64,000 nucleotides of DNA from Trichosphaerium sp. ATCC 40318 (lineage: Eukaryota > Protista > Tubulinea), in the NCBI GenBank assembly GCA_038496445.1, contig JALMLS010000072.1:96754-160753 (forward strand), in the 5' to 3' direction. Shown here in pieces: positions 9,288-40,938 of the stretch. The notes below the pieces were generated by a model, which worked only from the letters and a program-made list of their open reading frames with translations, ran no database searches and was not told the DNA's origin. Position 1 is the stretch's first letter. The number at the start of each line of letters is the position of its first letter. The translations under genes were made by a program, and so were the position numbers.

Positions 9288-9860
9288 ATGTCAAAATGTC
9301 ATCTATTGCATCTACCTTTGGAGCTACATCTTGATATTATTGATTTAGACCCTACATTTGCCAAATGGCCACTATTATCAAAATATACAGCGACAACAAC
9401 GAGGTTTGATAGTGACTTGAATAAACATGGAAAATGGATGAAACATAAGAATGTGCTTGGCTCAAAAAAATCAATGTTGTTAGGCCAAGAACGTTGGAGG
9501 CATGGTCAACTTCATGGAGAGTATAAGAGTTGGTATGGAGTACATCACAAACATATACAAGATGTGTTGCACAAAGAACAAACTCAAATGAGCTGTCATT
9601 GTTATTACAGTAATGGTAAAAAGGAAGGTGAATACAAAGAGTGGCATCAAAATGGTGAATTGCGGAGACATTGTTACTATGTTGATGGTAAATTAGAAGG
9701 AGAATCTAAGCAGTGGTATAACAGTGGACAAATATATGAGGACTCTAATTTTGTATGTGATGAACTAGTAGGAAGTTACAAGCAGTGGAACAACCATGGT
9801 TTGTGTACTGTAGACGGTAGTTATGTGGATGGTAAACTAGTAAGATCCAGAAAAAGGTAA
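9288..9860 (+). CDS. F-box-like + MORN-variant (YwqK-type) repeat protein, paralogue 1, single exon
   Basis: N-terminal LLHLPLELHLDIIDLD...KWPLLSK...TTRFDSDLNKHGKW, then ~24-aa repeats such as GKKEGEYKEWHQNGELRRHCYYVD and GKLEGESKQWYNSGQ. Confidence 0.85.
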   Translation: MSKCHLLHLPLELHLDIIDLDPTFAKWPLLSKYTATTTRFDSDLNKHGKWMKHKNVLGSKKSMLLGQERWRHGQLHGEYKSWYGVHHKHIQDVLHKEQTQMSCHCYYSNGKKEGEYKEWHQNGELRRHCYYVDGKLEGESKQWYNSGQIYEDSNFVCDELVGSYKQWNNHGLCTVDGSYVDGKLVRSRKR

Positions 9861-10185
9861 ATCGTAGAATAAACCTTCAACATTTTTTCTTGTTATTTTT
9901 TTAGTTCACTGGAGCACAATCAATTGCTTAAGAACCCTTAAAGCTACAAGGTATCAATTGAAAGTAAACGTTTTACAACTCCATCCTTGTCCATCGAGAA
10001 GTTTCTGTCCGTAACATGTATCAGTTACACCAAATGCAGTTGCGCCCTAGGTAGAACTATAATGGTAGGGGTACATGTACTCGCACCCTTAGGCGCGAGA
10101 AAGCAGTATGGAAGTTAAGTTTGTGTTTATAAGTCGAATATAAGTAAAAGTTGAGCGAATCTCCTGATCCAACAACATCTACGGT

Positions 10186-12182
10186 ATGGCATACTCTGCA
10201 AACGCACATGACTGGCCTGAAAACACTGTATTGGATTGGCTAACAGCAAACGGTTTACAGGGGCTACATGACACATTCAGAAATAACGAGGTAATGCGTT
10301 GTGTTATTCGTCTTGGCAGAAAATTGCTCAATCTAGCGCTAGATTGATGGCTCTGCTCTAATGGACCTTACAAGAACCGACATTAAAGCAGAACTTGAGG
10401 TACAGCAATCTATATCTCTGAGAGATAGTTCACAGTATGAATAAACAAACAACAGATTCGATCGCTTGTGTTGAGAAAGAAGCTATGGGCCGCCATTCAA
10501 CGTACCAAAACGCACCTGATTTTTGCGAATCACGTGGACAGTCTTCGGCTCCAGAAACATGAAGCAGCGGTAAGCCTTTTTGAGAGAGAAACAAGCCAAA
10601 TACCCGGTATAACAAAGTATAGTTGTTTAAGGCTGAAGAAGCGAGAGGAGGCGAAATTGCTGTTGCTGATATGATTATGACAGATGTTGATAACTTGAAA
10701 AGTGTCAAGGAGAACTTTATTGTACGGATTACGGTACTTTAATCCGTACAATAACTTTTATTTTAAAGGCGGCCTCCGAGTTACAACAAGAGTATGATGA
10801 AATGAGAGACCAAGAGGCTATAGATCTTGATTACGCCTTATCACTGTAAGTAAGATTAGCACTTTGTCTAACACGTGGTAGAGCCAGCGAAGAGCAAAGG
10901 CGGAAGTTTAGAGCTCTTTTGGCTAGAAGAAATCCTTCTCTTGAACTCTCATTTAACATAGAGATTGTGTCAGAGCATGGCTCAAAATTAAACGAGCTCC
11001 GTGATTCCAGAAATTGGCTTGAAAAAGAGCAATGTGCGATTTGCTCGCAAGTCAAGCCTTGGTCGATTCAAGTTTCTTGTGGACATTTGTGGTGCCAGGA
11101 TTGCCTTGTGGTAGGTGTATATTGGAAATAAGTGAGTTATAACCATATAGGATTTGTTCAATGCGTGCTTGAAGAATGTCGGGTTGATTCCACCAAGATG
11201 CTGCAAGCAATTGTTAGATCCAAATTTAGCTTGTGTACTTCTACCTTCTGTGACGCTTAAGAAAGTAAACGCCTTACGTACTTCTCAAGTTAATGGCATA
11301 CTCTTAGTTTAAGAGACTCTTTGCCGAACATACCATCAAGAACAAGATGTACTGTCCAAAGAAGACTTGTTCACACGTATTGGATGTAGATAGACTTGTT
11401 GTTGAAGGTATGCGAATTCATAGAGCATGTGACATTTCTATCTTTTAATGTATTTGATAGAAAGCGGAGCTTCTCAGTGCACGAAATGCCATTCATCTAT
11501 CTGTAGCAAATGTAAGACTTTCTGGCATTTTACAATGACGTGTGGCGAGTATCAGAGGCTTCCTGATTCGGTTAAATACGCCGATGATGAATCGTTGTTC
11601 AAGATTGCCAATAGCAACAATTGGAAAAGGTATTATTGCTTGATTTTGATTCTACCATTTGACAACTACAAAGGTGCCCGGAATGTCACATTTTCATTGA
11701 ACTAAAACATGGGTGCAATCACATGACTTGTAAGAACTGCGGGTACGTTTGTACATAAAAACTTGTTTAGCAACCTTCTCTCAAGGTGTGAGTTCTGCTT
11801 TCAGTGCCTTGAGCTATGGAGAAACCATGGATCAGGGTGTAACTTGTGGAATAATGAGGATCAACTGTTAGAAGTAGTAAATCGTAGAGCTCAAAATCCT
11901 GCACAAAGGTATTACTACAAGTGGAAAAAAATCAAATCTTATCGTAAACTTATACCTTTCTTAGAAATGCAATTAGGAGGAACATCGAGTACAATGAGTG
12001 TGTTGATCATAACTTTAATCGCATTAAATGGCTTCGTGGTGATTGTGAAGTCTGTGGCTTTTATATGAATATGTACTGGGCACCCACCATTGAATGATGG
12101 AGATTAATCTATTTTTAGTTTCTCATACAGTTGTTCTACTTGCAGAATGTTGGTTTGTATGCAATGTAGACACAATGCTTAG
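10186..12182 (+). CDS. SAM-domain + RBR (RING-IBR-RING) E3 ubiquitin ligase
   Basis: SAM: DWPENTVLDWLTANGLQGLHDTFRNNE|IDGSALMDLTRTDIKAELE|IRSLVLRKKLWAAI. RING1 CAIC..SCGHLWCQDC; IBR KMYCPKKTC..CTKCHSSICSKCKTFWH; RING2 CPEC..IELKHGCNHMTC..CEFCFQC. Confidence 0.9.
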
Positions 12183-12325
12183 TGCGTATTGTCTCAAGTA
12201 TGTGCGAATAGGCTAGCTTTGTATGTGATAATTCTCGTTGTCAGACTGACGCAAATAAACTGTCTACTATTCCGTAGTTTTGTTTTTATAAATTCATATG
12301 AAAGAAGCGTTTAAATTAACTTACA

Positions 12326-15300
12326 TTACATTCCTAGCACGTTCTTACCTGTATTCAAATTCTTTAAATCTGTACTAGAATGAGTATTGACTATTGTGAA
12401 GGGAACAAGTTTATTACTTCTTTATGTATAATTTGACACCAGTAGAAGATACTTGATTTGACGTGCTGACCAACAAGTTAGCTAAAGACAAAAAGAAAAA
12501 GACTAAGTTACTGCACAGCATACCTTGTTTTGGTTTCTCCTTTTGAATTGAATCCTTTACAATACGGATCCGCATTACACATGACCATCAGTTGCTCAAC
12601 GTCCTTAATCCACATACCATGAAGTGTGTTACCAGAAACATCGGTGTTATCTTTTACCTCATACAAAGATGCAGAAGGACTGTATTTTTGCTCCTAAAAA
12701 TCCAGAAAAAAATTAGAAAACACGTGTTTGGTTATTTTGTCTTTGTTGGTGGATTTAAGGACGTACAAAGCTCTTTGCAATATCTAGAGGGTTACCAGTA
12801 GCAGTAGTTGGGAAAGATTTCTTTTCATGGTTCCATCCAATCTCAAAGTCTGATAACTCCTTGTTATACTTATCCTCATCAACAGGAACTCCAGATTTTA
12901 CAGCCTGAAGTAATGTCTTGTACCAAATGTTCCATCTTCCATAGTAGTAATCTAAACAACCGTATTAGTAACTAAGACTCTTTGTTTTGAAAAGTCGTAC
13001 CTGAGTATAATCCACTCCAAGCCTTGGAAGCATAATCGTTGATCTGGCCAGTAGGTCCCCTAATTTTTTTTTGATTAGTTGAAAGAGTACAATCTGATAA
13101 GAATAGTATTACCAAAGAGTTATTTGATTTCTTGCATTGAACTCCAATGCGTCTTTCTCTTCTGTAGTAGTACCGCCGCTATTTCTGGCGTTGTTGATCC
13201 ATCTGCCCAATAAGTAGTTGACATCTGAAGCAAGGATTGTATCAGTATCTTTTATGATATCCATTAATTTATCTCCAATTGATTTTAACTAGTTTTTGTT
13301 TATGATTAGGTTAACACGTGGTAAAATGTTGTTTCTATCACGTACTGCAATTGTAGTATTCGTTTTATTAGTTTCCCAATCTTGGTAATGAATACGGAAG
13401 AGGTAGTGCAAGTCGATGAATAAATCAATGAGAACTTGTCTGAACAAAAAAAAAAGATTAAAAAAAAGAAGACGAACAAAGCATTTGTTCCTTACCTCGT
13501 AATATCCACCAGATCGTAGTTGTACGGACCATTGATTTTTTTATAATCAGAAGAAGCCTTGATAATACTATGCCAAGCAGATACTATCTATAAAAAGTGT
13601 GAGCAATCCAAAAAAACCCCTGAAACAGCTAATATTTTTTTTGTTGGTAGAACTTACTCCTGTTGCATCAGGTTGTTCGTTAGAGTTTATTTTTATATTT
13701 GGCACGTGTTCAATAGGACTTAATGTAATTCCTTGATGGCTATAAGTGCTCTTGTAAAGTGTTTTCCAAGTAGAAGCAGCATTTGAAGAAACACCACCGT
13801 ATCTACTAATCTGGTATTGTTGTATCCATTGAGATACATTAAACTTGGCGTCACGCCATCCAACTTCCGTTGCAAGTTCATAAACAATAGGGCTATTAAA
13901 ATTAGTACTAAAATACCACGTGATAACAAGTACTTGTTCTCGATAGCCTCAGGAGTAATACCAGTACCAATAATTGTTGATTTAGCTAAAGATACAGTTA
14001 CATCAATAAAACTCCTCCATCGTTTCGAAAATACATACCTGCTATCGCATCCAAAGGACCGTTAGCTATTACATCTAATGGTCCATACAATGATCTTCTA
14101 CCGCCGAAATTATGAAGTGTACACCAAATGAAAGGCTACATAATAATTATAAATTAAAGAAAAAAAAGTAAGAAAAACAAAACGAAGAGCTGGGCTTACC
14201 TTTCCAAAATAGCTGCTTGTTTTAGACCATATAGGAACTTCTTCTGACCATAGATCAAGGATTATCATTTTATCGTCAGGGATGCTTCCAAGGTAGGCTT
14301 TGATTTCAGGAGATTTCCAAAACCCTTAGAGCTTGTTAGATACTACTGTAGTTGTCCGGCGATTTGTTTGGACGCTAGGCTAAGGAAATACGTGCCAGTG
14401 TCAGTAAATAACCATCCTTGCATGAGCCATACAGCATCAGGATCTGCTTCTTGTAGTGCGGTAAGAACACCTTTGCTTGAAGCTCCCAAATACCTTAACA
14501 CGTCAGAACGTCCTCGACCAGGCTTGACAGAAAAAGGAAAAAATTGACTTACGTTGGATCATTTGATTTCGGTCTCATTTCGTTGTAGGTATCAGCGTTG
14601 TAAATATGGTCTGTGCCATAGATTTGTGTCTATAATTATTAGATGGCCACATAAAATTTGAGACGAGGTAGGTACCTGAGCGTCAATGAAAACCTTGCCA
14701 ACTTTTGCGAATAATGGATCAGTAGGTTCAACTAAAAAGTCTGCACTGTTCGTTTGATTAAAACCAGCCCAGTTAGCATTTCTCGTAATATTAGACTTTG
14801 GGAAGAGCGTCTGAAATGCACGAGGAACATGACCTATCCAAAACTCTTGTCAGACAAAACAAAGCCACAACAACAGGATGAAGTTGATGTTTAGGTTAAT
14901 TATCCTCGTATCTTACCAGCAAAACCTGGCAAAACAGGGACCATTCCGAACTGTCGTGAACGTGTTAGAATTTGCTTTTGGAGCTGCATCTGGCCTTCTC
15001 TCCAATCAGGTAATAGAGGACCTGCCCAATGTTGAAGATTTCCCATACGATTCCAAGCAAGGAAGGCTGGGCCGCTGAAGAACTAATGATAAAAAAAGGT
15101 AAGAAAGTAGGTTCATTTGAGGAAGCTTTTTACATCCTGGACGTCTTCTTCTGTACATCCTAACTGCTTGAAAGTCTGCGCCCAGACATATTCTTGTCCA
15201 GTAAAGGATAACGGAAGGTTAATACCATGAAGAGCCTACATGAGTGGTTAAAAACCAACTTGACAAACCACAGCAAAATAGAGTTGGTACCATCCAATCT

Positions 15301-16337
15301 AACGATGCATTAGTGTCACATAAGTTTTATTAAAACCCGATCAAATACCGTACCTATTTCGCGTTCCCATCGCTTCCAATCCCACCATACGGCTGAGTAA
15401 CTAAGGAAGAGATGTTAGTGTTTTTTTGTGGATTCTCGAGACTGGAAATAAAAAAAGTTCTACAACTATTTCTTACCTCACCGTACAAACGTTCATGTAG
15501 TATCTCCATTTCACAGGAGCTACAACACTCTTCTTACCAGTCACAGATGGCAAAGGACTAGGTATATCCAAATTATCGCCTAAATAAGTTAATATAGTAA
15601 AACCTACAATAAACTGGTGACAAACTTGCCTGTGCCATCGTCACCCCACGTGACGCTTAAACCACAAGAATAGCGCATGTACTCATACAATCCAGACGCA
15701 AGGGCTACATAAAATAATAAACCACAACGCAGAAAATAACTACAACAAGCAAAGGACATCATCTTGTGTCTTTACTGATGAAAAAAGTTTTTCTCTTTTT
15801 AGTTTTCGTACCAACACCGCTACTTCCCTGTATAAGAACTCTATCGTGTTCAGGTGTAGTTATTTCGTAAACATCTTTACCCTTTTATCTCATTTGTAAG
15901 TACATGTGCACGTGTTTTTAAAAACGAAGTTACGGTTTGGAAAAAAAAGGAAAAATCAACCTCAACGAACAATCAAAAAAATGAAGATATGGACGTACTT
16001 GCGATTGAGGGATGATGGAATAGTTGAATTTCCCAGCAATTTGGTTACCTTTTTGTTTAAAACAAACGTTAGAGCTATAAAACACTACTGATAAAATATA
16101 TAGAGTGCTACGGCACTGTAGAGGTGGTTTTTATGAAAGTAATTCTTCGCAGTACCGAATAAGCGTTGTGTTAGGCCGATTACAGCGTCTACTTGTTCCT
16201 GAGGCGTCGCGGATGCTTTTAATCTATCTAAACTACTATTTGGCGTTAACGGCAATTTAATATGTTGTAGCTTGAAGTTTGTTTACGTACCATACGGCTG
16301 TGGCTACGAATAGCAGAAGCAATGCTGCTCTGAACAT
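12326..16337 (-). CDS. NAGLU: Alpha-N-acetylglucosaminidase (GH89), secreted/lysosomal, many exons
   Basis: Signal peptide [15 protein letters not shown]; motifs [94 protein letters not shown]. Confidence 0.95.
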
Positions 16338-16982
16338 TTGGAGTCCACTTTATGAATGGTCAACTGATTTAAAGAAAAATGTGTTCAGTTCGTTTGCTGT
16401 TGAATGTAGTACACAAAGACATTTCTGTGCGGGACTTTTAAGCCTAGAACAGATATTCACGTGATTGTTATTGTGAGGCCAATGCTATATCCAAGAAATA
16501 GAGCACAAGCGTTGAGCATGTTGGTGTATTCCATTCAGACCAAAAGGGGAAAACGGCAGTACAGTGAATACAACTTATTGTGATACTTTAGTTTGTATTG
16601 ATTGTTCTGAATGTGTTGGTACTTGATACTGCAAGGGAGATCACCTGAAAAAGAGAATGCGAATGGTGTTGAGCATGTATAATTTACAGGTTCAAAGTCA
16701 TCTCATGTGTGGAGCAAGAATGAGTAAAACAATTGGGATACATGTATCTGTTGAATAAATGTTTACATACCTTTTTGGACTACCTATACCCTAACATGAC
16801 ATCTCTAAGTACAACCAACGCTTTTCCCAACAACACAAATGTTACGAACTGCAAGCACGTGGTAGTTTATCAAGAACATTTTGTCAGGGAACATATTTAT
16901 TATTGGTAAGACTTTTCTAGTAAATGTTTAGAGGAAAAGATCTGATTATGCCATTGTTTATCTTGATATTGTAAAGGCGTAG

Positions 16983-17663
16983 TTATTCTAAATACACCAC
17001 CTTTTGTTCGTCATTTTCATAGTAAGAATGGTGTTTCAATTGGCCATAGATATCCCACTCCTTATGCTGTCCTACTTGCATACCATTATCACAATGACAT
17101 TCTTCAAGAAGTTGTCCGTTCTTATGCCAAAACTTAATTTCTCCATGTTGCTCATCATTGACGTAATTAGAATACCGCTGTAATACTCCACTAGCATACC
17201 ACTTTCTACTAAGTCCATTTAACTTACCATCAACATACTCACACGCTTCTTGTATTTGACCGTTTTCATACCAACGCTTATACACTCCATGAAGCTCATC
17301 GTGTTTCCAACATACCTGAGAAACAGTGTAATGATTCTTATAGTATAAAGGTGACCATCTAGCTTGGTTTTTGTCGCATTGTTGTGACGATTTCTCTTTA
17401 GATTTTTGGACCATCCACTTGCCATGTTTTCTCATTTTACTATCGAACCTAGTGGTTATTGCTGCGTGTCTTGATAGGATAGGCCACTTAAAGTATACTT
17501 CAAAGTCTAAATCACCGATACAGAGAAGTAACTCAACTGGAAGGTCTAACAGGCGCGTTTCAGAACTTTTTGGGAAGTTGTAAGTAGTTTTCTACGAAAG
17601 CTTGTTATTATATAACTGGATAGTTTCGTAAGGCTTATGGCATACTTTGGGTTTTGCGTCCAT
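16983..17663 (-). CDS. F-box-like + MORN-variant repeat protein, paralogue 2
   Basis: Short leader exon MDAKPK|gtatgc...ttcgtag|, then one exon: RLLDLPVELLLCIGDLDFEVYFKWPILSRHAAITTRFDSKMRKHGKW followed by MORN-variant repeats (ELHGVYKRWYENGQIQEACEYVDGKLNG). Confidence 0.8.
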
Positions 17664-18412
17664 ATTTGAAGCACCAATGTTGTAAACCACGTGGTTTTCA
17701 TAAATTTAAAGCTTACTCCTGTTGACTTGCTCTTGTTAAATTTGGGGTGAATAGTTGATTGATTGAAAGGGACTGAATATGCTTGTGATACCTTTGACTG
17801 CGTAGTAACTATGTCTGCAGTATGTAATAAACAGTTCGTAAGCCAATATGCACGGCGTACCTAAGCGGTAATATGGTGTTAATAGTGTTGCACGCACATC
17901 TACTTTGTGTTCTTCTTTTGGCATTGCGTTCTTAAGATCAAACCTTCAATGCTAATTTTTGTGAAGTCTCGATCTGTAGTGCTACAACGCAATTAGGCAT
18001 AATAGGTACTCCTGTTTTACAAGAAGAAGAAAAGAGGACTAATGCTATTCTCTTTTTTGAGTTAGTATTTGTTCATCACAGCAAGCGTTAACTAGCAAAT
18101 ATTTATATACCTGCTAGCACCAGTCAATCGAAATATGAGCTATGGAAATAGTGAAGGTTATTACTAATGAGAACTCAACACTTGGATTGTCATTAATCTT
18201 TTTAGTGTTTATCTGGGTCAACTCCATTGATCGTATTCTTGAAGAGACCTGATGTTCAACAGTAGTCAGAGTACTGAATGAAGTTGTTGTTCTATTCAAA
18301 ACATTGTATTTATTGTAGATATCTAAACTGTTACACAAACCAACCTTTCCAGTGATTGGTTTGATTGATGTATTCCTTGTGGGTAAAAAATACAACACTT
18401 CAAAGTAATCGT

Positions 18413-20213
18413 TTACAGAGCGTTTTTGCGCTTTGCTTTGATGACCTTGATACGTTCAATAGGACTGAATTCAAGCTCTTCTAATACATCTGAGGTGATG
18501 TCTCCAGGTTTGATACCTGATTCATTCATCAACGATCCAAGTTCTTGTGCTCTTGCACTTGAAATACCCAACGTCGCCAATGCTGATTGCCAATTAAATT
18601 TGGGAGTAGCGATTGATTGATTTTCTTGAGGTGGACAGAACTCCGACTAAATGAACAAATTAAATGTGAAGAAAATAAAATTAAAACAAGACACCTTTGT
18701 GTGAGCAACTGAAACATGAGGCTTGTCATTCCATGATTGTTGAGATAACAGTGACATATTGTAATTTGATGAAACAGATTCAACATTTAAGGTATCTACA
18801 TCAATTGGCAAGTGATGATTGTCAACCTAAATACCATGTGAGATAGGTGTGCTTGTTTTCCAGTACTTACATTGTTGATGTATTCATCTCGATTTTGTTG
18901 TATTTTAAAGGCTTCAAGGGTATTTTGAATGATATCTAGATGTTCAGGATCATCTCCAAACTTGGTGTAATCATGATTGGGATCAACCACAGCTTTTGAC
19001 AAGTACTTATCTTTTCTGTCTTCTTTTACCTCTGACTTCATTGCTTTCACAGCATCATCATTTTTATCTTTTGACGTTACTTTATCTGTTGCGGTTACTT
19101 TACTGACCGCTTTAAAGTGCTTAAGGATTGTTAGACAAAAAGAAAGACAAATAAGATTTCAAAGTACCTTTTGATAATTAGTGAATGTTAACTTTTGTGG
19201 CGTTGATTGACCATGTTCATTATTTCCACCTGTGACCAACTGAAAGTCATGAGATATTGCCAAGTAATCATGTGCTTTATTGGCAAACTCGACATATTTT
19301 CCAGGTAATTTTAGTGGTTTGTTTGATGAGAACGAACCAATCCATTTTCCACTGCCCCAACCAAACAAACAACCTTCATCATCAATCGCAAATGATGTAC
19401 ACACACCAGCGTGTACGGATTTGATGTTATTGAGTCCATGAATGATAGCCTGGGCATGCTTGTGGTCAGTGCCGAACCCAAGACGCCCATCCTGTTGACT
19501 CCAAAAGGAAATACTTGTCCTGACTTGAGGAGAACAAGTACATGACAATAACCAACAGCAATATCAGTGGCATCATCAATACTTGGAACACGTGAAATTG
19601 TCTTTGGTTTCAAGAATAATGATTTATCTTTTGCTTTATGTTTGGTTGTTCCCCAAAGAAAGATATGACCTGTTGATGTCATTGCTCCACTTACATAGCG
19701 ATTAGTTTGAATTTTGTTGACATGATCTAGACTTGTAATACGTTTCGGTGAGTTTACTTTCTCCTTGTCGAATGAATGGCCCAATCCATCCCATCTGTTG
19801 TCTCCCCAAGAGTAGACATGACCTGATTGTGATAACGCCATACTCGCATAATAAGCAGAGACTTTCGTGATATTGTTGAGATATGGAACACGTGTTGGTG
19901 ACGAAACAGGTGACTTGAAGTGGCCCAGACCCAATGACCCATTAAAATTGTATCCCCATGAATACATAATACCGTTTGAATCAACTGCAAGGCTATGAAG
20001 GGATCCAGCAGCAATACAGACGATATTTAGGAGTGACTTAATTGGTCTTGCGATAGGACTCGTATTTTCGTCTGTGTTACCCAATTGGCGGCAATAGTTT
20101 TGTCCCCACGTGTAAACAAAGCCATCGTCTGCGATTACCATTGAATGTTTGTAACCAGAGGCCAAACGGTTAATATATTGTAATCTAACCGACGAAGTTT
20201 GCGGCTCTGCCAT
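18413..20213 (-). pseudogene. RCC1-repeat protein with C-terminal SAM-like domain; one frameshift at ~19493 (pseudogene or sequencing error)
   Basis: RCC1 repeats (IAAGSLHSLAVDSNGIMYSWGYNFNGSLGLG). The frame changes at FGVN/xDGRLGFG. Three clean GT-AG introns downstream lead to WQSALATLGISSARAQELGSLMNESGIKPGDITSDVLEELEFSPIERIKVIKAKRKNAL*. Confidence 0.75.
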
Positions 20214-20522
20214 TACTGAAGAACTGATTTATCTTGATAAAAATCCAATCAGGCGGTTGGAAAATTAACTCCTTCAGGTACGGGTTTTGTTACCGAGCAG
20301 ACAATAAATTCGCACTCGCATCGTATATTAAGTTACACTAGACTGCTTAACCAGAGTCGCAGTTTATCCTACTGCCAACGGGTTGACTACTTTAGGAGGA
20401 GTTGAAGCACTTAAAACTCGTGCAAACTGAATGCAATAAATAAAATAGTTGTTGTTAGCTACATTGTCCATCGTATCACCCCTTATGTTGTACCATTAGT
20501 TCTGTTTAAAAACTAAGAGTAC

Positions 20523-20722
20523 CTATATATTAGAAGGTTAACAGTATTGTGCAAAACTGGGATAAACTCCCATGAATAGGTGAAGTTTTCAAATGGATTT
20601 TCTTCTGCAGTGTCTTCAGTAAACTGCCGTTCTCTTAAGAAACGCCTATCAACTTTTGAAGGTGGAATACCTGTTTTTGCTTCTCTAGTATTTAAGACAT
20701 CAAATGCGGCATCCGTTGTTTC
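20523..20722 (-). other. Orphan coding-like exon
   Basis: ctag|...AG|gtactc bounded 200-nt open frame ETTDAAFDVLNTREAKTGIPPSKVDRRFLRERQFTEDTAEENPFENFTYSWEFIPVLHNTVNLLIY; no partner exons found. Confidence 0.35.
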
Positions 20723-30038: not shown

Positions 30039-30465
30039 ACAACACAACATTACACCTCTATGTAAAATTGACAAATATGTACCCGCCTTGTAAATGATAA
30101 ACCGAGATTTTCTTTCAGTTCACTATCTAAAGCAAACGTTGCTGTCTTCTTGCTAAACGAAAAAACTTTTGAAAACGTGAACGGAAAACTCGCTCTTTTT
30201 TACCGTTTTGTGACCTTAAAATCCCCGCTTTATAACATCAATCGCTACTGCGCTTGGCCAGGTAGAGTATACTTCGTTTAGTTGGATGCTATGCGCAAAA
30301 ACAATAAAAATCAACGCAAGACGCGTGCCCAGACACGAAAACGCGTAAAACAAGTATAAAAGCCTTTTTTCGCTTACAGACAACTTACATTTACAAATTA
30401 AGGTCAAAACATCCTCTACACGCTCTATATACTATGCATACTCAGTAATCGCAAGTTTTGTCGTT

Positions 30466-32988
30466 ATGCTTGCTATTCTTGCTTCAATTTGGGTGAATAA
30501 CCCAAAAGAGAACCCAAAACGATCTGAGCGCTTGCATAAAGACCGTTGCCATCACTTTTTACAGTCTGTAGTGGCTGGCGACATCGAAACTGTCAGAAGA
30601 ATATTATCTTCCAAACGGTCTCCTTCTGTTATCAAATGCACCAATGAACGGAATGAAACAGCCTTACACAACGTTTTATATGGTTAGATATTTTCTTTTT
30701 AACTTAATCACGTTTCTTGACACGTGATAAAGGAGCTTACCAAGCATTCAACAGACATTTTCTGAGGTGGAATGAAGTACCTTTTAAGAAGATTTTGAGA
30801 TTGCTTTTAGACAACGGTGCAGATGTACGACAAGGCTCCTTATGCCCAGTAACATATGCTATTACATTTCGAATATCATGGGTAAGTGTTAGTAGTATCC
30901 ATTGGGAGCTAATTGAATGACTAGGCGCTTGAAGCTCTGTTAGAACATGAGAATACTGAAATAGAGAACGGTATACTTTCAAGTGATGATGCTTGTTATA
31001 CACGCAAAGATGCTCTTGGTAGAAACCTCCTACACTTAGCAGCATCATCTAGCTTTGCATCAGCATTCGCTAGAGTTTTTCTGAGGTCACCTAATAAGCC
31101 TCTACCTTCGACTATTTTGAACACTTTCAAGTTGAAGCCGATTCACAATTCTAAAAAACAAAGGCTCACTGCGCAGAGCGTTAATGATGCTGTAACCCCT
31201 TGGTTCATGCGATACATTCTAGTACATACGCCTATCAATGTTAATGAACAAGACAAAATGAATAATACACCTTTGCTAAGTGCTATTGACCAAGACCGTG
31301 AAGACACTGTCGAACTTCTCCTTGGTTCGTGAATAATGAAAGCGTGCCTTATTGCTGACAGATTTAGAACATGAGGCAGATGCGAATGTATGTGGTGGAC
31401 GTATTGGTTTATGTCCATTGCATATAGCCATGGCATTGAATAATACTAGAACAACAGAATTACTGCTAAAACATGGTGCGAATGCAACAATCGAAGATAA
31501 TTATGGAAGGTGACTATAATTTTCTATGTTTTTTTGAACTTCCTCGTAACTTTGATACAAATGTTATTCATCAATATATTCACAAGTCTATAGAGTACCC
31601 GAAAATATGGCTTTTAACCGTCAAGATAAGGCAGGTGATGGGAAAGATGCGAAAAACTTGCAAAATAGCAAAACGTAAACACAAAATGAATGTACTCTTC
31701 CTGACCGGTAATAGTACTACTGACACTGGCGGATGGAATACTTTTGCTTTAGATGAATATTCAATATCATATTGTGACATTGACAGGTGTGTTTTATTAC
31801 TCTTAACACGAGACTTTGCAACTTTTTGTTGACTGTTTTTCTTTTTATCAAGAGTTCCTTCTACAATAAGCCCAGAGGATTTTTTCAGAGATTATGTATC
31901 TATAAGAAAACCAGCAATCATCAGTGGTCTAATAAGGGATTGGAAAGCAAATGAGAGTTGGAAGAAAGAAAGATTGATGCACAAATATGGAACTCGTACA
32001 TTCGGTGTAAGTTTGTTGGTTAACTCATTTACTCTTTCATAATTTTAATTAAGATTGGGAGTATACCATACTCTAGTATATATGGGAAACAGACTCAACC
32101 ATCCACCCTCAAAGAGGTACGTACGTAAGCTTCAGAACAATTTACAAAACAAAACAATGAACAATTTTCAAGTCTTGAATAACAACGACTCTCACTCCCA
32201 GTTCTGACTCCGAGTATTCCCATTTTATAAAAATATCATTACACATACCATATTGTAATATGTTAGACCTATCAATATTTTTGTAGTAGCACATAAGTTT
32301 TGGTTTTTGTTGTCCGTTCTGTTTGCCATGTAAAAAAAAGTTTTCAGTTTTTTTTTGTATTCACAACTTTATTAGTATGTTGCATACATGGATGGTATTA
32401 ACTATCAAGAACCTTATACTTCACCAATGTATATGTTTGATGGTAGAGCGAGTCACCATATTTTAGAATTTGAGGACGATTTCTCCTATCCAGAAATATT
32501 CAATTTCACTTCACGATTGAAACAGTAAGAATGTTATTTTTATCTTGCCATTCTCAACACTCTTCATGTAGATTTATACTCGGTCCTCCTCTCTCAGGTG
32601 CTCCACCTCATTTCCATGGACACGCATGGAATGCTTGTATTTTCGGTGCTAAGAGGTGCAAGTTTTAACAACAACGAGATTGCTCACTGCATTGTTAGGT
32701 GGATACTTTATCCTCCAAAGTATTCTTTTTTTTCAACAAAACCAGTGCTGGAGTGGTTCAATAAAGACTACCCACATCAAGGTACTGTTATGGTTGTCAG
32801 TTAAATTAAAATAAAATAGAAGGCGGTATGGAATGCATGCAATATAGCGGTGACATTATGTATGTACCCTTAAACTGGGGACATGCGGTACAAATTATCA
32901 AAAATTGATTGTTTTTCTTTAATGATATTTATAGGTTCTCAACATACAGCAAAGTGTTGCACTTGCTATTGAATTTGAAGAGTACTAA
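30466..32988 (+). CDS. Ankyrin-repeat + JmjC (JMJD8-like) protein
   Basis: Ankyrin: NETALH, GRNLLH, VNEQDKMNNTPLLSA. JmjC: FFRDYVSIRKPAII, FILGPPLSGAPPHFHGHAWN, KRWILYPP, GDIMYVPLNWGHAVLN. Confidence 0.88.
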
Positions 32989-33239
32989 CAAGCTTGTATT
33001 ATAATAAAAAGAACTCTGTTTGTTCTAACCCTTTTTATGCTCAACAACAGTTTGTTGATAATTTATCAATCAAAAAACCACCTTTGTGAAAAAGTATTTT
33101 TTATTGTACTAATAAGTCACATGGCTATTTTATAACTAGTGTTTGTAAACACGCCTACATTGAATGCACTCTTTTCTTATGAACCACAATCTTTTTCACA
33201 TCTTCACTTACACAAGAACGAAAGGCGTAAGTGTTTTCT

Positions 33240-33420
33240 ACCCAGTGCTTTAATCTCTGTCAGTTTTTGAAGTGTCGTTGAGGGAAATGGTATGAACTCC
33301 AGCAAGTGCTTTTGCCCTTATCTGATACTGAAGTGTGATTGAGGTAAATAGTATGAACTCCAGCAAATGTTTAAGCGTAATAGCGTCCTATCTGATAGAA
33401 CAAGTAAGCTAGTTTATGAC
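33240..33420 (-). pseudogene. Decayed leucine-rich-repeat gene fragment ('GVHTIxL..SDxGLKHL' type)
   Basis: Direct repeat gag(g/t)aaat(g/a)gtatgaactccagcaa near 33280 and at 33341. Allowing several 1-2 nt indels, the minus strand reads KHxAGVHTIYLNHTSVSDKGxKHxAGVHTISLNDTSKTDRxLKH. Confidence 0.6.
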
Positions 33421-33653
33421 AGATTTGTTGAGCGTTAAGCGAATAGCGTGTATTAATATCTGTAGAAGCTGCAAAACATTTGACGACGTTAAACTTTATT
33501 TGTTGCCACATGATTAATATTGACTATGCTTTGACCGTTTTAGTACAAGTTTTTTTGGGGTTTTTTTTCACGTTACCTTGGTTTGTTTTTTTTAGTCACG
33601 TTTTTATCTCCAAAAACACCAAAACCTGGCGCAATTCCTAAGGGATAATATAG

Positions 33654-34230
33654 ATGAGCGAAAGCGCTTGTAAAAGTACTTTTGAACCGCTACCTAAAGT
33701 ACGCTCTTAACTTAGTTTTATTTTTGCTCAAAAAGACCAACAAACGTTTCTGTACAGACATGGCTCATAGATAAACTCCTCATGGATACTTTGTACATTA
33801 AATACAACAGTTTATTTCTAAATATATCTAAAAACAGTTTCTTTAGAACAGAGGCTGGTCTACAGACGCCGAAAAAGAGAAATTAGATAAAGAGGACCAC
33901 AGAAAAAGTAAAATTTAAACCTTTCCTTTTTTTACTTTTACTCACGTGATCAAAGCGATTCATATTATAAAATCACGTGGTACAAGAAAAAAGCAACCCG
34001 GTGTATCTCTATCAGATTCATTCACACCTCTACCTGGTCGTAAAACGTTCAAAAATTGGATAATCAAAAGCGCGCAACATGCTGACCAAGAAATATCATC
34101 GCCAGCTGTTGAAAACCTTTTTTGCGAGATTGCAGAAGAATGGCTCAAAAAGCAACCTCAAAAAGTAGACGTAACAGAAGGTCTATTACTAAGGATGGAA
34201 ATGCCAATAGACAAGATGTTACTGGCGTAG
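33654..34230 (+). CDS. Small hypothetical spliced protein
   Basis: ATG at 33654 with GT-AG-bounded exons; an internal repeat FEPLP..TWLI / FTPLP..NWII; no family recognised. Confidence 0.35.
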
Positions 34231-34973
34231 TGTGAACTTCAAAAAAACCCAAATACACATCGATTTTGACAAAAAAAACCAAACACGAACACGAATTAAT
34301 TACCCTCATCCTCTGTGTGACGCAAGGCATCAAGGTTGCACCCATTAGGGTATTGACAAGCATTTCGACTACCTTTTTCTCAAAAAGAATGACAAAACAA
34401 TGCACACTGCAACACGTACTTTGTTGCAACTGGAAAGTGCAGTCTGGGCGTCTTGCGTATTTGGTTTTTTTATAAAACGTTTTGAAAGATTTAATGCATA
34501 CTCTTGTACGCAATAGAACACAGTAGTAATGAGTTTATGAGTGTTTAAAGTGTTTTTGGTACAAAAGTTGAAGATAACGATGTCAATTTACTTAATATTT
34601 GTTTATTTACATTCTCCACGCGCGATACAACGTACCTATGCCAAAATCATTTGCAATTCGTCGGTAATTCTCACAACATCCGATTCGAACGTAAAGTCTG
34701 TCGTTTTACGCCTAGGTTAACAGTCAGAACTACACCAGGTATAGTAAAATAAGACTAGTATTGTTTTTAAAAGAATCAGTAGTGCTTAGTTTTGCATCAG
34801 AAGGGTCAGAACAGATCCGGTTGGCATCACAAGTTGGTTTTTAAAGTGAAAAGTGCTTGTAGCGACCCGTACCTTATCGAAGAGATGCTTTGGTGAGTTG
34901 TAGCAGATAATAAATGACTTGGGTACGACTTTATCGCGATTTCTTTTATGTATTATTTCTTCGGACAGTGATT

Positions 34974-35860
34974 TTAAAACATTCCGCATAAGATCGAAAA
35001 ACGTTTATTAGTTACATAGGCACTCGCTGTAATCAATAGACACAAAACCATGTAGCTTGAAGCCACGATAGGCCAGCTACCAGAAGTTGTCACTACAATA
35101 GGAGCACTTGTAGTAGGCGATTGAGTTGAAGGCACAGCTGTTGGCTCAGTAGTTGGCGGCATTGTTGGAACCTCAGTCGTTGGTACTAATGGAGCTGCAG
35201 AAGTTGGAGCGTCAGTTGGAGTGTCAGTTGTTGGCTATAGTTGTTGGCAAGGCTAGCACTTTTTGTGCTTCAATAGTTGGTGGCATTGTTGGAGCCGCAG
35301 TACTGGGAGCTTCGGTTGTTGAACTCAGTAGTCGGTTGTTGGAGCATCAGTTGTAGGAGGTTCAGTTGTAGGTGCACCAGTTGCGTTTGTGTTGTAATAT
35401 TAGCTCGCTCTTCTGGTACTTTTGTGAACTTAGATCTCCTATGTATAGTGCAATTCAACACTTGACGTGATCCGCATGAGGCTGGCTCTGTAAAGGTCTG
35501 TAGCGCTACGAAATTTATTGGGGAAACACCAACATGAGAACACTCATGGGAAGCATGTGGTGAACGTAATCTTCTTGATCAACAACAGTTTCAAACTACA
35601 AAAAGGAGATTAAAATAAGAAACCTAACTTTGGGTTTTGTACTGAAACACCATGATAGGCAGTGCTTTCTGAGACATTAAAATATTGGCAAGCATATGTT
35701 GTACCCCAGCCAGGTATTGTATAACCTTAAAACAAGAGAATAAGCTACTTAAACCGTACATTGTTTTCAACATTTTTACAACTATATAAAAACAAGCGCT
35801 TCATTTATTTACCTTTCATGTGCATTTCATCTCTTAATCCACCTCGAGATGCACTGGTAT
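34974..35860 (-). pseudogene. Copper type II monooxygenase (DBH/MOXD1-like) fragment with Pro/Thr mucin stalk and hydrophobic C-terminus; frameshifted
   Basis: GYTIPGWGTTYACQYF..|FETVVDQEDYVHHML(frameshift)HECS. PTTEPPTTDAP-type repeats switch frame several times. Tail WPIVASSYMVLCLLITASAY. No C-terminal catalytic half seen. Confidence 0.65.
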
Positions 35861-36748
35861 CTGTTCCAAAAAAGTAACTGAATCAGCAACAAACAAAAAA
35901 AAGGCACAAGTACGAACTTCTGTCAAGTACAATCTAAAACAATGAAAAAAATAAGAAAAAAAAATACATCTATTTGATACGTGGAACTGAAACGTATCAC
36001 TGCTTGACCATGCTACTACAATCTTATTTTGTCCAGATACAATATTTTGGTCTTATGTACTGGTAAAAAACAAAAAAACAGAACAAGGTATTCGTAGACG
36101 CTCACATTTTGATCACCTGTCTTTAGTTTTCTTCGACAGGAGTTCTTAGTTAGTTTGCTTTGAATATGTACACCCAAAATAGTAATAACAACAATCGCTG
36201 CACTTACACTTTCATTTTTACGCAAGTTTAGAGGTATTGCAATAATGACCAAACGAAGTGGTACTTTGCCTTCTTTTTTAGTTGCGACAGTTGGAGTCGC
36301 TGAAAAAACTTGTCAGTTGGTGTATGAGCAAGACGTGTACAACATCTTTGATCACGTGTTTCGATAACTTATTGCACTAGGCGTTTTTAAGCATTCCCAG
36401 TTTTTTTTTTGTTTTTTTACGAAATACGAGTGCTCACTTACCTGTTTTGATTCTTCTTTTCTGTACTACCTGTTTTAATACTACAGTAGTATACTACAGC
36501 ATAAACCGAACAATAAGACACTTTTTCAATAACCCAGCCGAAAAACAATTAATACGCAGTAAAGTAAGGTTTTACTAGTGCAACAGCGTAGGGACTAGCA
36601 TAGAGAGTACTGTAAGTGATTAAAGGCAGAGAAATGCGAATGTGGGAACTCAAAACAGCTTACTTAACTCCCGGTATAATACAAACTGCCTAAACTGATT
36701 TGTGTGTATTTTTTAATTGAGGCAAGTAGCAACTCCGGCAAAACCGCT

Positions 36749-39670
36749 ATGGCAGCGGTAACCGTAAGCTCGGGTTCTGAATCATCCAAGGATGGTATTA
36801 GGAGCAAAAAGAATAAAGCCTCATCGGTACTACTACGGTCTAACTCATTTGTACTACAATAGATATAGCCTCAAAAACGCTGTTTTTAATTCAAAAAACG
36901 AAAAAAAACCCAAAACGCTCTCCCTTATACGCCACTAACGATAATATTGAAGAGACTTAAACGCCAAGCAAGCGTAATGAGGGTTGATAAGACTAAAATA
37001 TTCCCTCCTGAAAAATCGATAGAGGACGTCGTGGTATATATTGTGAGCGAAAGGCTAGGTATTCATACCGTTTTAAAGCTTTATTTCATCATTTTTTTAG
37101 CAATTAATTACTTACTTAATTTAAAATAGGTATTGAAGGTGTAGATGTTGCTCCCTGGGTTAAGCTACTTAAACAGCATCTAATTTTCAACTTGGGTTTA
37201 TTATGCAGGCAAGTGTTGTCCTTAAAAATCGATTTTTCGGAAAAAACCGAAAAAGGTCAAAACAAGAAATCGAAAAAAAAAAAAAAAAGTTGTTGATTTT
37301 GAAAGCGCTCAATTTCATTTTTTATTGATATAATACGCATAAACGTGATTATTTAATAATAATTAAAGCGTTTTAAAGGAGATTCAATGGATTTTTTTAA
37401 GTACAAGATTTCCAATCTTAACGTTTTGATAGGTTGTCTGTAGATCGCTTAAAACGCGTTGGATTACCTCTATTACTTGAAGAAGAGCTTGCACAAGCTA
37501 TTGATTGGTCTACAAACCAAAAAGAGAAGCTACCACTCGTCGTATGATCAAAAAAACAATAAGTTTTCTTTTTTGGAAGGTTTTCGGCTTTCTTCCTTTC
37601 TTGGGTCTTATGATCTTTACTAATGCTTTTAATTACCTAATAAATATACAAGGCAATGTTTGCAGGTGATATACAGACTCTAAAGAGTAAAGTACCGTCC
37701 GTATCAAGCTCTGATAGGAGTTCTCTTTTGGGTATTACAACAAAAGAGCGAAAAATGATTAAAGACAGCTGGGACAAAGCTATGGCTATCACACGGGATT
37801 CAGCAGACGTGGATCTATTTGAGTACGCTATTGTATTACGTTTAACTACTTTTATTATCTAAATATATGTCATTTACATTAATATTCTGAAAACTACAAA
37901 AACGTGATTGTTTTTCTTTACTGCTCTTTTTTTTTGTTATTCGCTCCTCAACATGTCACAAACTATTTCTTTCTAGGAGGTGCATTACTATATTATTTAT
38001 ACATATATACTCATTACACATATACTATTACAAACATCATGAACTCTCACTCTTCGTGGGCAACCTTTTTTTTTTTTCATGTTCCTACGTTTGTCTGTTC
38101 CATTTTTTTCTCGTTCAGAGCTCTGTTATTTTCACCTTTTGTATTTTCTCTATTTGTGATTGTAATTGTTAACTCTGACTGTTTCTTTTAGGACATTTTA
38201 TAGCAAATTCATGAGCGAAAATCATGTGGCTAAAAAGTTATTTGTGGTATGTTACAAATAGAGAACTTTACCAAGTGTTTTGTATTTTTTTTCCTGAGGC
38301 GACAAGTTTATTTAACACGTTTTTATAGGGCACAACACCGAAGAAGCAAGCCTCTGTATTGAAGAAAATTATACGTAAGATATTAGAGTCATTAGATAAC
38401 CCTACAGAGGTCACTACGAGACTAAGCAGGTTGGGTAAGTATAATAAAACAAGATTTAATTCGAGTTTGTTGATCTTTTTTCAGGTGCACGTCACATGAT
38501 TTATGGAGTCAAGGGTGAAGATTTTAGATCATTTGCTTTGGCGTTTACACAAGCTATGGAGGTTGTTTGTACTGATATTGTACGTGTTATTATTTTCGTT
38601 CAAAAAGCAGCCGGGTTACAGTCGAAACAAAAAAACGGTTTTTGTACACTTAGTTTGAACTTTTTCACGTTTAATCTGCTTTGGATACGTTTTGTGCATA
38701 CTGAAATAATTTTTTGTGATATCTATGGATATATTATTGCTGTTGCTAATATTCAGGATTCTTCAAAAAGTGTCTAAGATGCTTTACTTTTTTTGGAAAG
38801 CAGCTTGCATTATTTAACTCATTTTTTGGTTTTAGATGACACCTGCACTTAAAGAGGCATGGTATTCTCTTATAATAAATATGGGGAAAGTAATGACAAG
38901 AGATTATGAAAAGATTAAAGAGGTATGTCACGTGATTTTATATGGATTCTATTGCATAGTTTTTTTATTTTTATCAAAAAATCACTTTACTGAATGAGTA
39001 TTATCTAGGGAGTTAAGGGTGACTTGTGGAAACGGTCAGGCGCTAAATGGACAAAATATACATATAAAATCACACATGAAACATTGTTTATTTACAAAAC
39101 AGAGGAAGTATGTTACGACCACTTAAAACATTTTTTTTTTGATTTAGCAATTTGTATTTCGGTGTTTTTATTTTTTTTCTCCATTCGGTGGTTGACTAGC
39201 GTTATCTAACTATCTTCATTAAGTGTATTAAAGTTCGAGATGAGATTATTCTTAGAGATGTCACAAACAAAGCATTTGGTGGTGACTTGGATAGTGCACC
39301 TTATAACTTTTGTTATTCTTTTGATATCAGAAATGCTGGTGGAGCTACCAAATATCAATTTTGCTTCGACACACAAAACGCTCAGAAGAAGTTTGCTATG
39401 CTAGTCAATGAACGTGTTGTGGCACATGCGCGTGCATATAGAGAGAGGGATGATTCTGGATCAGGTATGCACATATTTCGTATGAAGTTTCAAACGTTTT
39501 TTTTTTTGCGGAACGACTTTTTTTTCGTTCGTCGTTGACTTTGGTTGATAGGATCTATCAAATCTCAGAGCTCTGAAATGCATCTAGTAAGAGACTTTTC
39601 TAGTAAACTAAAAGGGGCCATGTCACGTAAGACCAAGACACTATCACGACCGACTTCAGGAAAACAATAA
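36749..39670 (+). CDS. SAM-like + globin + PH domain protein
   Basis: Globin: ITTKERKMIKDSW, FYSKF, AKKLF, KKQASVL, LSRLG|ARHMIYGVKGEDF, TPALKEAW. PH: VKGDLWKRSGAKWTKYTYKI..LFIYKTEE..YQFCFDTQNAQKKFAMLV. SAM-like: PWVKLLKQHLIFNLGLLC|RLSVDRLKRVGLPLLLEEEL. Confidence 0.85.
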
Positions 39671-40128
39671 GGATGATCATCTCTATTTTTACCTTCTGCC
39701 TTATAATTGCCGTTTTACTTTTTTTTATGATCATCTCAACGGTTTGAGATATGGCAAATTTTGTGGGTTTTTTTTTTGGTCTATGCACGGAAGTCGATAG
39801 TTACTGCAGATTGATGGAAATGTATCTATTTTCTTGTCATAACTGAATAGCCTTATATCTTGTACTTAAAAAAAATTTCTTAAAAATAACCAAACAACAA
39901 AAAATGTGACTTCATTTCTTGCTTTCTCTCTCACGAACTTGGTTCTTTTTCTTCGTTAATGTAAAAATAGTTCAAATAATGATACTCTTACTGTTGATTT
40001 TTTGTGTTGAGAGTAGTATGATAATATTCACAGAATTGTGGAACGCAATTACTTTTCTTCTTCTGAACATCACTTTCGATAAGCATGTTCTTCATTTAGT
40101 CAACAAACGTTACAACGTCCTCTGCAAT

Positions 40129-40938
40129 ATGTCATCTAAACGGGCAAGAATAAAACCTCACAAAGTAGAGTATTGTAGTATTCTACTGCTACCAATAGAG
40201 CTACGACTTGATATCATGGACTTGAATGCTGAAGCTTCCAGACAGCTTCCACAACTTTGCAAAGAGATTGCTGTAACAAGCGGTCGTTATGATGAATCTC
40301 TCCTAAAACATGGGAAATGGAAGAGTCCGTTAGTGAAGTTCGGAAACTATCTATTCTCAGATGTACATAGATATATCCTTGAGCACTTCGAACATGGATA
40401 TTGTATTGAAAGAAAAACTTGGCATGAAACAGGTGGTATCGCTTCACATGCTTTTTATAGCAAACAGAGTACAGGCACAGATCAAAACCAATATAGATAT
40501 AGACCTTCAGTTGCACGGACATGTTTTAGGCTACCTAAGTGTAAAATATATTGCACGTGGGAACGAGAATCTCTTTGGTACTATGATGGTAAAAGAGAAG
40601 GAGAATATAAAGAATGGTTTCGAAATGGAAATCTAAGATTACATGAATTCTATAAGGATGGATACAAGCATGGAGAGCAAAAAGAATATTATCACGGTAA
40701 ACTAGCATTTCAAGAATTTTATAAGAATGGTAGCCGAGAAGGACAACATAAGAAATGGATAAAAGGAATATTGGTTGATTGTAGTAATTATACCAATGAT
40801 GTTAGACATGGTATTTCAACATCATGGTATAAAAATGGAAAATTACAATCTCGAAACAACTATGTTAATGGTGTTCTTCAAGGAGAATTTATCGAGTGGG
40901 ATAAAGATGGAACTCAAATTGAACAAAACTGGGATTAA
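40129..40938 (+). CDS. F-box-like + MORN-variant repeat protein, paralogue 3, single exon
   Basis: Probable start MSSKRARIK; ILLLPIELRLDIMDLNAEASRQLPQLCKEI..SGRYDESLLKHGKW, then repeats such as GKREGEYKEWFRNGNLRLHEFYKD and DVRHGISTSWYKNGKLQSRNNYVNG. Confidence 0.85.
   Translation: MSSKRARIKPHKVEYCSILLLPIELRLDIMDLNAEASRQLPQLCKEIAVTSGRYDESLLKHGKWKSPLVKFGNYLFSDVHRYILEHFEHGYCIERKTWHETGGIASHAFYSKQSTGTDQNQYRYRPSVARTCFRLPKCKIYCTWERESLWYYDGKREGEYKEWFRNGNLRLHEFYKDGYKHGEQKEYYHGKLAFQEFYKNGSREGQHKKWIKGILVDCSNYTNDVRHGISTSWYKNGKLQSRNNYVNGVLQGEFIEWDKDGTQIEQNWD

What the first reader, a model, noticed from the sequence alone, without database searches (positions are those of the whole stretch)
9288..40938. 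Three dispersed F-box-like + MORN-variant paralogues with intron-free cores: possible giant-virus-derived SCF adaptor family
Seen: genes at 9288-9860(+), 16983-17663(-) and 40129-40938(+) share an N-terminal block L-L-x-L-P-x-E-L-x-L-x-I-x-D-L...(W/L)P-x-L-(S/C)...R(F/Y)D...KHGKW, followed by ~24-aa MORN-variant repeats. The F-box and MORN cores contain no introns, while most conserved neighbours are split every 100-250 bp; only paralogue 2 has one intron, in a 6-codon leader. The copies are strongly diverged and sit between unrelated housekeeping genes. Known: expanded MORN-repeat families, some with F-boxes, are typical of amoeba-infecting giant viruses (faustoviruses, marseilleviruses, pandoraviruses). 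Inference: a large host family (3 copies in 64 kb) of ubiquitin-ligase adaptors with variable repeat surfaces, either captured from viruses or the source of the viral genes, possibly acting in host-virus conflict.
Basis: partly seen in the sequence, partly recalled or inferred. Interest (0 to 1): 0.8.

Follow-up and report, generated by a model that had tools for sequence, protein, structure and literature searches.

The report
Amoeba mass-expanded virus-like repeat adaptor family
Three scattered genes in an amoeba-like genome each join the same short conserved head to a variable stack of MORN-type repeats; they likely belong to a family of several hundred copies resembling giant-virus proteins and possibly act as interchangeable target-binders for the cell's protein-tagging (ubiquitin) machinery, but that role and a viral origin are both unproven.

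Summary
In detail: three real paralogues (27-35% identical), each a conserved ~45-residue head plus 24-residue MORN_2 repeats in one exon, among intron-rich host genes. Correction: paralogue 1 also has an intron (~50 nt, 5' UTR); it is found in spliced contigs of three runs. Six full-length relatives were found, one from Trichosphaerium sp. (Amoebozoa). A published Trichosphaerium gene table labels 719 of 27,369 models 'YwqK antitoxin' (bacterial best hit) and 163 'MORN' (mostly Pacmanvirus/Orpheovirus), so the family likely numbers about 850; sharing of the head is untested. The paper already notes F-box and MORN domains among viral-like genes. The F-box call is weak: no Pfam, PDB, HMM or fold support; only a language-model look-alike (giant-virus MORN_2/F-box clusters) and a post-hoc profile test. 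Skp1 co-folding could not be run. Repeats resemble giant-virus and phage subtypes more than bacterial ones, but the tree is unresolved, so origin and direction are open. The scan noted similar head+MORN arrays in giant viruses, not in this host. Best reading: a host-amplified family of degenerate F-box-like adaptors (~50%). Side implication: part of this amoeba's reported record gene transfer may be in-genome amplification.

The parts
9093..9227 (+). Paralogue 1, untranslated first exon; likely transcript start near 9093
   Evidence: X2 record 5 covers 9050-9227 and continues at 9280; X3 has an 18-letter loose end before 9093 that I recall as a cDNA template-switch adaptor
9228..9281 (+).
   Evidence: joined pieces 9227|9280 in X2 record 5; GT/AG positions
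9288..9860 (+). Paralogue 1 coding sequence, 190 aa, single exon; head 9303-9437, then MORN_2 repeats
   Evidence: covered in one piece by contigs of X1, X2, X3; 3 synonymous sites and one changed codon between isolates
17646..17663 (-). Paralogue 2, inferred 6-codon first exon
   Evidence: sequence; no RNA contig listed over it
17592..17645 (-). Paralogue 2, inferred 54-nt GT..AG intron, phase 0, ends in an in-frame stop
16983..17591 (-). Paralogue 2 main exon, 202 codons; head 17552-17415, then MORN_2 repeats
   Evidence: AlphaFold2 beta-hairpin sheet at pLDDT above 90 for residues ~100-190, head below 50
40129..40938 (+). Paralogue 3 coding sequence, 269 aa, single ORF; head 40180-40320, a longer insert, then MORN_2 repeats
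   Evidence: expression not tested

Best explanation
These are three members of an old, dispersed gene family of a likely Trichosphaerium-type amoeba, probably several hundred strong, whose constant helical head is likely a degenerate F-box that would plug into Skp1 while the variable MORN_2 beta-hairpin sheet would bind different target proteins for SCF ubiquitin tagging. Shown: paralogy, architecture, single-exon cores, host-type splicing of paralogue 1, head more conserved than repeats, beta-hairpin fold of the repeats (model). Inferred: host lineage (0.85), family size (0.75), head derived from an F-box (0.6), Skp1 binding in the cell (0.5), kinship with giant-virus F-box/MORN_2 proteins rather than bacterial YwqK-type proteins (0.6), virus-to-host direction (0.45). 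The family likely spread by repeated duplication of an intron-poor founder inside the amoeba genome, not by hundreds of separate transfers.
For: One head is shared by all 9 family sequences and by none of the other 183 proteins then held (next score 12.6 bits). Head identity 56% vs repeats 38% fits constant plug plus variable binder. ESM Atlas: the head alone is nearest to a Nucleocytoviricota cluster with MORN_2 28% and F-box 19% (0.91, 115 shared features); whole paralogue 1 is nearest to two such clusters (0.95/182 and 0.94/175 features; F-box on 10% and 19% of members). Against a profile of 7 Pfam-picked viral F-boxes, allowing one deletion, 8 of 8 heads chose the F-box register and 5 of 8 beat 99% of shuffles; 0 of 12 control N-termini did. 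BFVD top named matches are Orpheovirus, Pithovirus and Hyperionvirus MORN proteins. A viral contig has a Skp1 gene among three head+MORN_2 genes (L001). Repeat-unit profile: Trp at position 5 in 93% of 27 host units, 81% of 31 giant-virus-type, 97% of 39 phage-type, 31% and 19% of two bacterial-type sets; divergence to host 0.164, 0.173, 0.24, 0.21. Family size: 719 'YwqK' and 163 'MORN' rows among 27,369 Trichosphaerium models; extra paralogous contigs touch the window genes (loose ends).
Against: No F-box Pfam hit for the 3 proteins, 6 relatives or 8 heads. Head profile finds no F-box among PDB sequences at E<=10. HMM and profile-profile scores against the 7 viral F-boxes are no better than shuffles (500 of 1000; 20 of 100; 30 of 150) although true F-boxes pass leave-one-out 7 of 7. 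The positive profile test was designed after these nulls, and the 8 heads are related, so not independent. The head model is low-confidence (pLDDT 61, pTM 0.35) with two main helices rather than a clear three. The heads of the L001/L002 viral proteins do not match the host head. The repeat tree is unresolved and does not group the host sequences. Table labels come from best BLAST hits to the repeats and do not show that those genes carry the head.
Confidence: 0.5

Rival explanations
1. Same expanded family of variable MORN_2 binders, but the head is not a working F-box: it is an N-terminal cap, dimerisation or localisation module (or a decayed F-box that binds another partner), so the proteins act as scaffolds, decoys or inhibitors without SCF.
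For: All standard F-box tests are negative. The most conserved stretch (the RFD..KHGKW end) resembles the first repeat of bacterial-type MORN2 proteins P0180 and P0183, so part of the 'head' is a repeat cap.
Against: Eight of 8 heads take the F-box register and 5 of 8 beat shuffles; the nearest Atlas clusters carry F-box on 10-19% of members.
Confidence: 0.35
2. The family comes from bacterial YwqK/MORN2 proteins (prey or symbionts), got its head in the amoeba, and has no special tie to giant viruses; viral look-alikes are parallel or came from hosts.
For: 145 of the best 150 representative hits match by repeats only, mostly long proteins; 49 of 49 inspected YwqK rows have bacterial best hits; a phage-like contig holds 13 tandem genes with the same repeat subtype; no viral locus with this head was found.
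Against: Host repeat units are closer to giant-virus and phage sets than to bacterial sets; 10% and 18% of unit assignments went to the two bacterial sets. No bacterial or archaeal genome locus with the head was found by word search.
Confidence: 0.25
3. The genes are mostly selfish or neutral copies (retrocopies or pieces of a mobile or endogenous viral element) with no host job.
For: Intron-free cores, dispersal, and a high inferred copy number; paralogue 2 has no listed transcript contig.
Against: Three of 3 ORFs are intact at 27-35% identity; paralogue 1 is spliced and shows 3 synonymous sites against one changed codon; no shared flanks beyond one 16-nt match and no poly-A tail by eye; GC matches the window; neighbours are host-type genes.
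Confidence: 0.1

Closest known systems
Putative viral-LGT 'F-box and MORN' genes of Trichosphaerium sp. (Tekle et al. 2023, PMC10521059; read: abstract, passages, sections 2.4, 3.1-3.4, 4.4, searches of the supplement, which was cut before Table S3)
   Same: Same kind of organism and genome features (GC 37.7%, mean intron 75 bp, exon 154 bp); MORN-labelled models with Pacmanvirus A23 or Orpheovirus best hits (44 of 53 rows inspected), scattered over scaffolds; one Trichosphaerium protein (P0088) carries this head.
   Different: The paper lists F-box and MORN as separate enriched domains and counts genes by best hit; in the parts read it does not describe a shared head, one family, or the 719 YwqK-labelled models, which it files under bacteria.
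MORN-repeat and F-box multigene families of giant viruses (Orpheovirus: 55 MORN, 81 F-box sequences, PMC5786535 passage; Atlas Nucleocytoviricota clusters with MORN_2 plus F-box)
   Same: Size, head+MORN_2 architecture, repeat subtype, multi-copy state.
   Different: Here the family sits in a spliced eukaryotic genome, dispersed, with 5' introns; no viral protein with an alignable head was retrieved (best: P0170, hhalign probability 9.9%).
Bacterial YwqK-family 'antitoxin' / MORN2 proteins (Pfam PF07661; NCBIfam LIC20035 adhesin)
   Same: 24-residue beta-hairpin repeat.
   Different: No head in the bacterial-type hits, many of which start with a signal-peptide-like stretch (by eye); different repeat subtype; no partner toxin gene seen beside the window copies.
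Chlorovirus SCF mimicry (PBCV-1 Skp1 A039L with ankyrin proteins A682L/A607R; PMC7019647 passage) and F-box/BTB family expansions of Parachlamydiaceae (PMC4209131 abstract)
   Same: Divergent Skp1-binding motifs joined to repeat scaffolds; birth-and-death expansion of ubiquitin adaptors in the protist world.
   Different: Those are on the parasite side and use other repeats; in chloroviruses binding was shown by experiment, here it is untested.

Membership tests
F-box proteins (PF00646/PF12937) | Scores against the curated F-box profiles | tested here: not met
   No hit for 3 proteins at E<=1, 6 relatives and 8 heads at E<=10; HMMER filters drop weak matches
F-box proteins (PF00646/PF12937) | Leu-Pro-x-Glu...Ile...Leu...Cys/Ser-Lys motif in F-box register near the N-terminus | tested here: inconclusive
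   HMM and hhalign at shuffle level; post-hoc one-deletion profile: 8 of 8 in register, 5 of 8 at <=1% of shuffles, scores -6.9 to 9.7 vs 2.2 to 14.0 for true F-boxes
F-box proteins (PF00646/PF12937) | Three-helix F-box fold | tested here: inconclusive
   Head model pLDDT 61, pTM 0.35, helices 10-19 and 21-37; best VIA Z 3.2, uninformative
F-box proteins (PF00646/PF12937) | Binds Skp1 | not tested
   Complex prediction queue full
MORN variant repeat (PF07661) | Tandem ~24-residue beta-hairpin repeats above the Pfam cut-off | tested here: met
   2 of 3 above 29.6 bits, paralogue 1 at 26.1 bits, E 7e-6; hairpin sheet at pLDDT above 90; MORN structures SET7/9 and Morn1 top the PDB list
YwqK antitoxin of a bacterial toxin-antitoxin pair | Encoded beside a cognate toxin in a bacterial operon | tested here: not met
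   Neighbours are NAC-, IBR-, NAGLU- and RCC1-domain genes, NAGLU-like gene spliced
Giant endogenous viral element | Cluster of viral genes or hallmark genes with shifted composition | tested here: not met
   Copies lie 7 and 23 kb apart among host-type genes; coding GC 35-38% as in the window; only 17 long ORFs and 3 further exons were scanned
Giant-virus F-box-like/MORN_2 proteins | Homologous head as well as repeats; nesting in a tree | tested here: inconclusive
   Atlas look-alikes 0.91-0.95; no alignable viral head; tree backbone support 11-65

The most novel reading that the evidence does not exclude
A marine amoeba took a giant-virus-type F-box-like/MORN_2 adaptor, gave it host introns and promoters, and amplified it to about 850 dispersed copies (about 3% of its genes): a variable-surface repertoire of SCF receptors that tags foreign or self proteins inside the cell. 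Much of the record 'gene trafficking' reported for this amoeba would then be amplification of a few founders, with this one family counted partly as bacterial and partly as viral.
Probability: 0.25. Interest if true: 0.78.

Novelty: new variant of a known kind. Interest (0 to 1): 0.5.

Why it matters
Head+MORN_2 arrays are known from giant viruses. A host genome with hundreds of dispersed copies would be a candidate intracellular recognition system of a free-living amoeba, testable with Skp1 pull-downs and infection transcriptomes. Apart from mechanism, the table counts suggest that best-hit LGT totals for Trichosphaerium are inflated by a few expanded families: 719 YwqK-labelled rows would be about 14% of its 5,210 bacteria-matching models, and the inspected viral rows hit a few viral proteins again and again. 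If the head is no F-box, it is still an undescribed conserved module on a very large family.

Tried and rejected
No whole genome held: no direct copy census. No RNA holder on record; RNA nature is inferred from splicing. Only 9050-18500 was laid, so paralogue 3 is untested; paralogue 2 has no listed piece (112 rows not shown). Word-based protein searches were nearly blind: 2 of 17 candidates, 37 of 894, of which 2 family members, self only. Locus searches with family queries found nothing in viral, metagenome or prokaryote genomes; one search gave 3 repeat-only loci at 27-28%; none; these are exact-word searches, weak evidence of absence. Phage collection: one weak repeat match. PDB sequence search: nothing meaningful. 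Head-only model: VIA best Z 3.2 of 48,161 chains, no F-box among the 50 rows; BFVD 5 matches at E 6-10, unnamed proteins of 182-234 aa in accession series that I recall as mostly faustovirus: a hint only. Skp1 co-folding: queue full, no result. Tree: 37 sequences, 95 columns, P0184 dropped as too short, unresolved (crashed). First repeat regex failed, scripts 135 and 137 failed. No look-alike findings by sequence or in this genome. Literature searches for a description of this family: searches gave only PMC10521059 and its preprint as relevant to the host; PMC10980511 has no MORN mention; PMC11788076 and PMC4679923 passages added nothing. Rejected: contamination by bacterial DNA (spliced 5' UTR, spliced neighbour); recent viral insert (no cluster, no GC shift).
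Full report
Observation. The three ORFs exist as stated and are homologous over head and repeats (E 1e-24 to 5e-16; no fourth copy among 1586 frames). Pfam finds only MORN_2. AlphaFold2 models the repeats as a beta-hairpin sheet at pLDDT above 90 and leaves the first 50 residues below 50; MORN proteins top the solved-structure list.

Gene structure. Contigs of four public runs (3 samples, 3 studies; none on record as RNA) laid on 9050-18500 skip 15 listed stretches of 41-117 nt in the NAGLU-like neighbour, 12 with CT..AC ends, so they derive from spliced RNA. The only GT..AG pair is 9233-9281, 3 nt short of the skipped stretch. Five variant sites in the coding sequence are three synonymous changes and one changed codon, a tiny sample that fits constraint. 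Paralogue 2's 6-codon leader and 54-nt intron are plausible from sequence alone. So 2 of 3 copies have one intron just upstream of the head and none in the core. Short matches with long loose ends at 9525, 9692, 17256 and 17290 likely come from other paralogues. Flanks share only one 16-nt match, and coding GC equals the window's.

Relatives and host. Of the best 150 hits among 1.84 billion representatives, 5 align over head and repeats and 145 over repeats only; one search added a sixth. Three come from MMETSP with no organism shown, two from JGI contigs of about 1 kb, and P0088 carries taxid 498012, Trichosphaerium sp.. The window's GC (33-41% per 2 kb) and intron sizes fit the published Trichosphaerium figures (37.7%, 75 bp). 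The host is therefore inferred to be Trichosphaerium or kin; no marker gene was tested.

Family size. PMC10521059 says that F-box and MORN are the commonest domains among putative viral transfers. Its Table S2 has 719 'YwqK antitoxin' hits, the last in row 27365; 49 of 49 inspected rows are separate models with bacterial best hits on many scaffolds. 'MORN' occurs 163 times in the same sheet; 44 of 53 inspected rows have Pacmanvirus A23 or Orpheovirus best hits. YwqK and these MORN labels name the same repeat type, so about 850 models (3%) are candidates, or about 0.8 per 64 kb; three here is above average. Whether they carry the head was not testable. The viral rows also repeat a few targets: 8 of 14 Harvfovirus rows hit one protein, 14 Hyperionvirus rows hit 5 proteins, 23 of 29 F-box rows hit Indivirus ILV1 (first rows only). 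This suggests amplification after few transfers. Table S3 was cut off and may bear on introns and expression.

Is the head an F-box? It is N-terminal, has a Leu-Pro-x-Glu motif, and is more conserved than the repeats (56% vs 38%). For: the Atlas places the head alone and the whole protein nearest to Nucleocytoviricota clusters where MORN_2 is common and F-box is on 10-19% of members; with seven Pfam-picked F-boxes from a giant-virus bin and one deletion allowed, 8 of 8 heads choose the F-box register, 5 of 8 beat 99% of shuffles, and 0 of 12 control N-termini do. Against: Pfam and PDB sequence searches are blank; HMM and hhalign scores against the same seven are at shuffle level while real F-boxes pass leave-one-out 7 of 7; the positive test was designed afterwards on related sequences; the head model is weak. 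The last dozen residues of the block resemble the first repeat of bacterial-type proteins. I do not file it as an F-box member; it may work like one (about 50%). Co-folding with Skp1 was prepared (alignments A4, A5) but the queue was full.

Origin. Fold matches in the viral library are led by an unnamed 206-aa protein aligned over 193 columns and by Orpheovirus, Pithovirus and Hyperionvirus MORN proteins; no library of cellular models was available, so this cannot rank viruses above cells. Viral contig L001 has Skp1 among three head+MORN_2 genes and L002 has one such gene beside a giant-virus capsid gene, but their heads do not match the host head. Host repeat units are closer to giant-virus-type and phage-type sets than to bacterial-type sets (assignments 42%, 30%, 10%, 18%); the sets are small, my labels are partly inferred, and the phage set is mostly one array (L026, 13 genes). 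The tree is unresolved. A viral affinity is plausible; donor and direction are not shown.

Mechanism. Most likely: a constant head docks the protein on a shared partner, probably Skp1 of an SCF ligase; the concave MORN_2 sheet, with fixed Gly/Trp/Tyr frame positions and variable positions between them (entropy 0-0.4 vs 3.2-3.6 bits), binds a copy-specific target. This follows from general knowledge of F-box adaptors and MORN repeats, not from a test here. Rivals: non-SCF binder or decoy (0.35), bacterial origin with a host-made head (0.25, compatible with either function), neutral copies (0.1).

Verdict. Real and partly published: the viral-like F-box/MORN enrichment in Trichosphaerium is in print; a single head-defined, dispersed family that likely includes hundreds of genes labelled bacterial was not found in the searches named under Tried and rejected. 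Earlier notes of this scan describe such arrays in giant viruses. New variant of a known kind; interest 0.5.

Noticed in passing
window:18413-20212 (-): RCC1-repeat gene whose repeat core of about 1 kb has no intron but changes frame near 19490 (305-aa and 134-aa ORFs both hit RCC1-like profiles): assembly error or pseudogene; its 3' end region is covered by a contig of X1. May belong to another intron-poor expanded family.
   Followed up: partly
window:8739-9043: Two near-identical 156-bp tandem copies (98%) just upstream of paralogue 1's likely transcript start.
   Followed up: no
window:10430-12070 (+): Multi-exon gene with IBR-like exons (likely an RBR-type E3 ligase) directly downstream of paralogue 1.
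   Followed up: partly
window:40017-40099 (+): Possible GT..AG intron upstream of paralogue 3's ATG, by eye only; would give all three copies a 5' intron.
   Followed up: no
window:41537-42748 (+): Long-exon gene for a likely secreted protein with no Pfam match at E<=0.1; looks catalase-like by recall.
   Followed up: partly
L001:3758-7041: Divergent viral Skp1 (PF01466, 29 bits) between genes of a head+MORN_2 family with a different head; a natural pair for a co-folding test.
   Followed up: partly
L026:7462-12551: Thirteen tandem genes with a short constant head and 2-5 MORN_2 repeats on a phage-like contig beside an intein-bearing ribonucleotide reductase.
   Followed up: partly
PMC10521059 Table S2 (not in the window): Inspected Harvfovirus, Hyperionvirus and F-box rows hit a handful of viral proteins repeatedly, pointing to several more amplified families behind the high viral-gene count.
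   Followed up: partly
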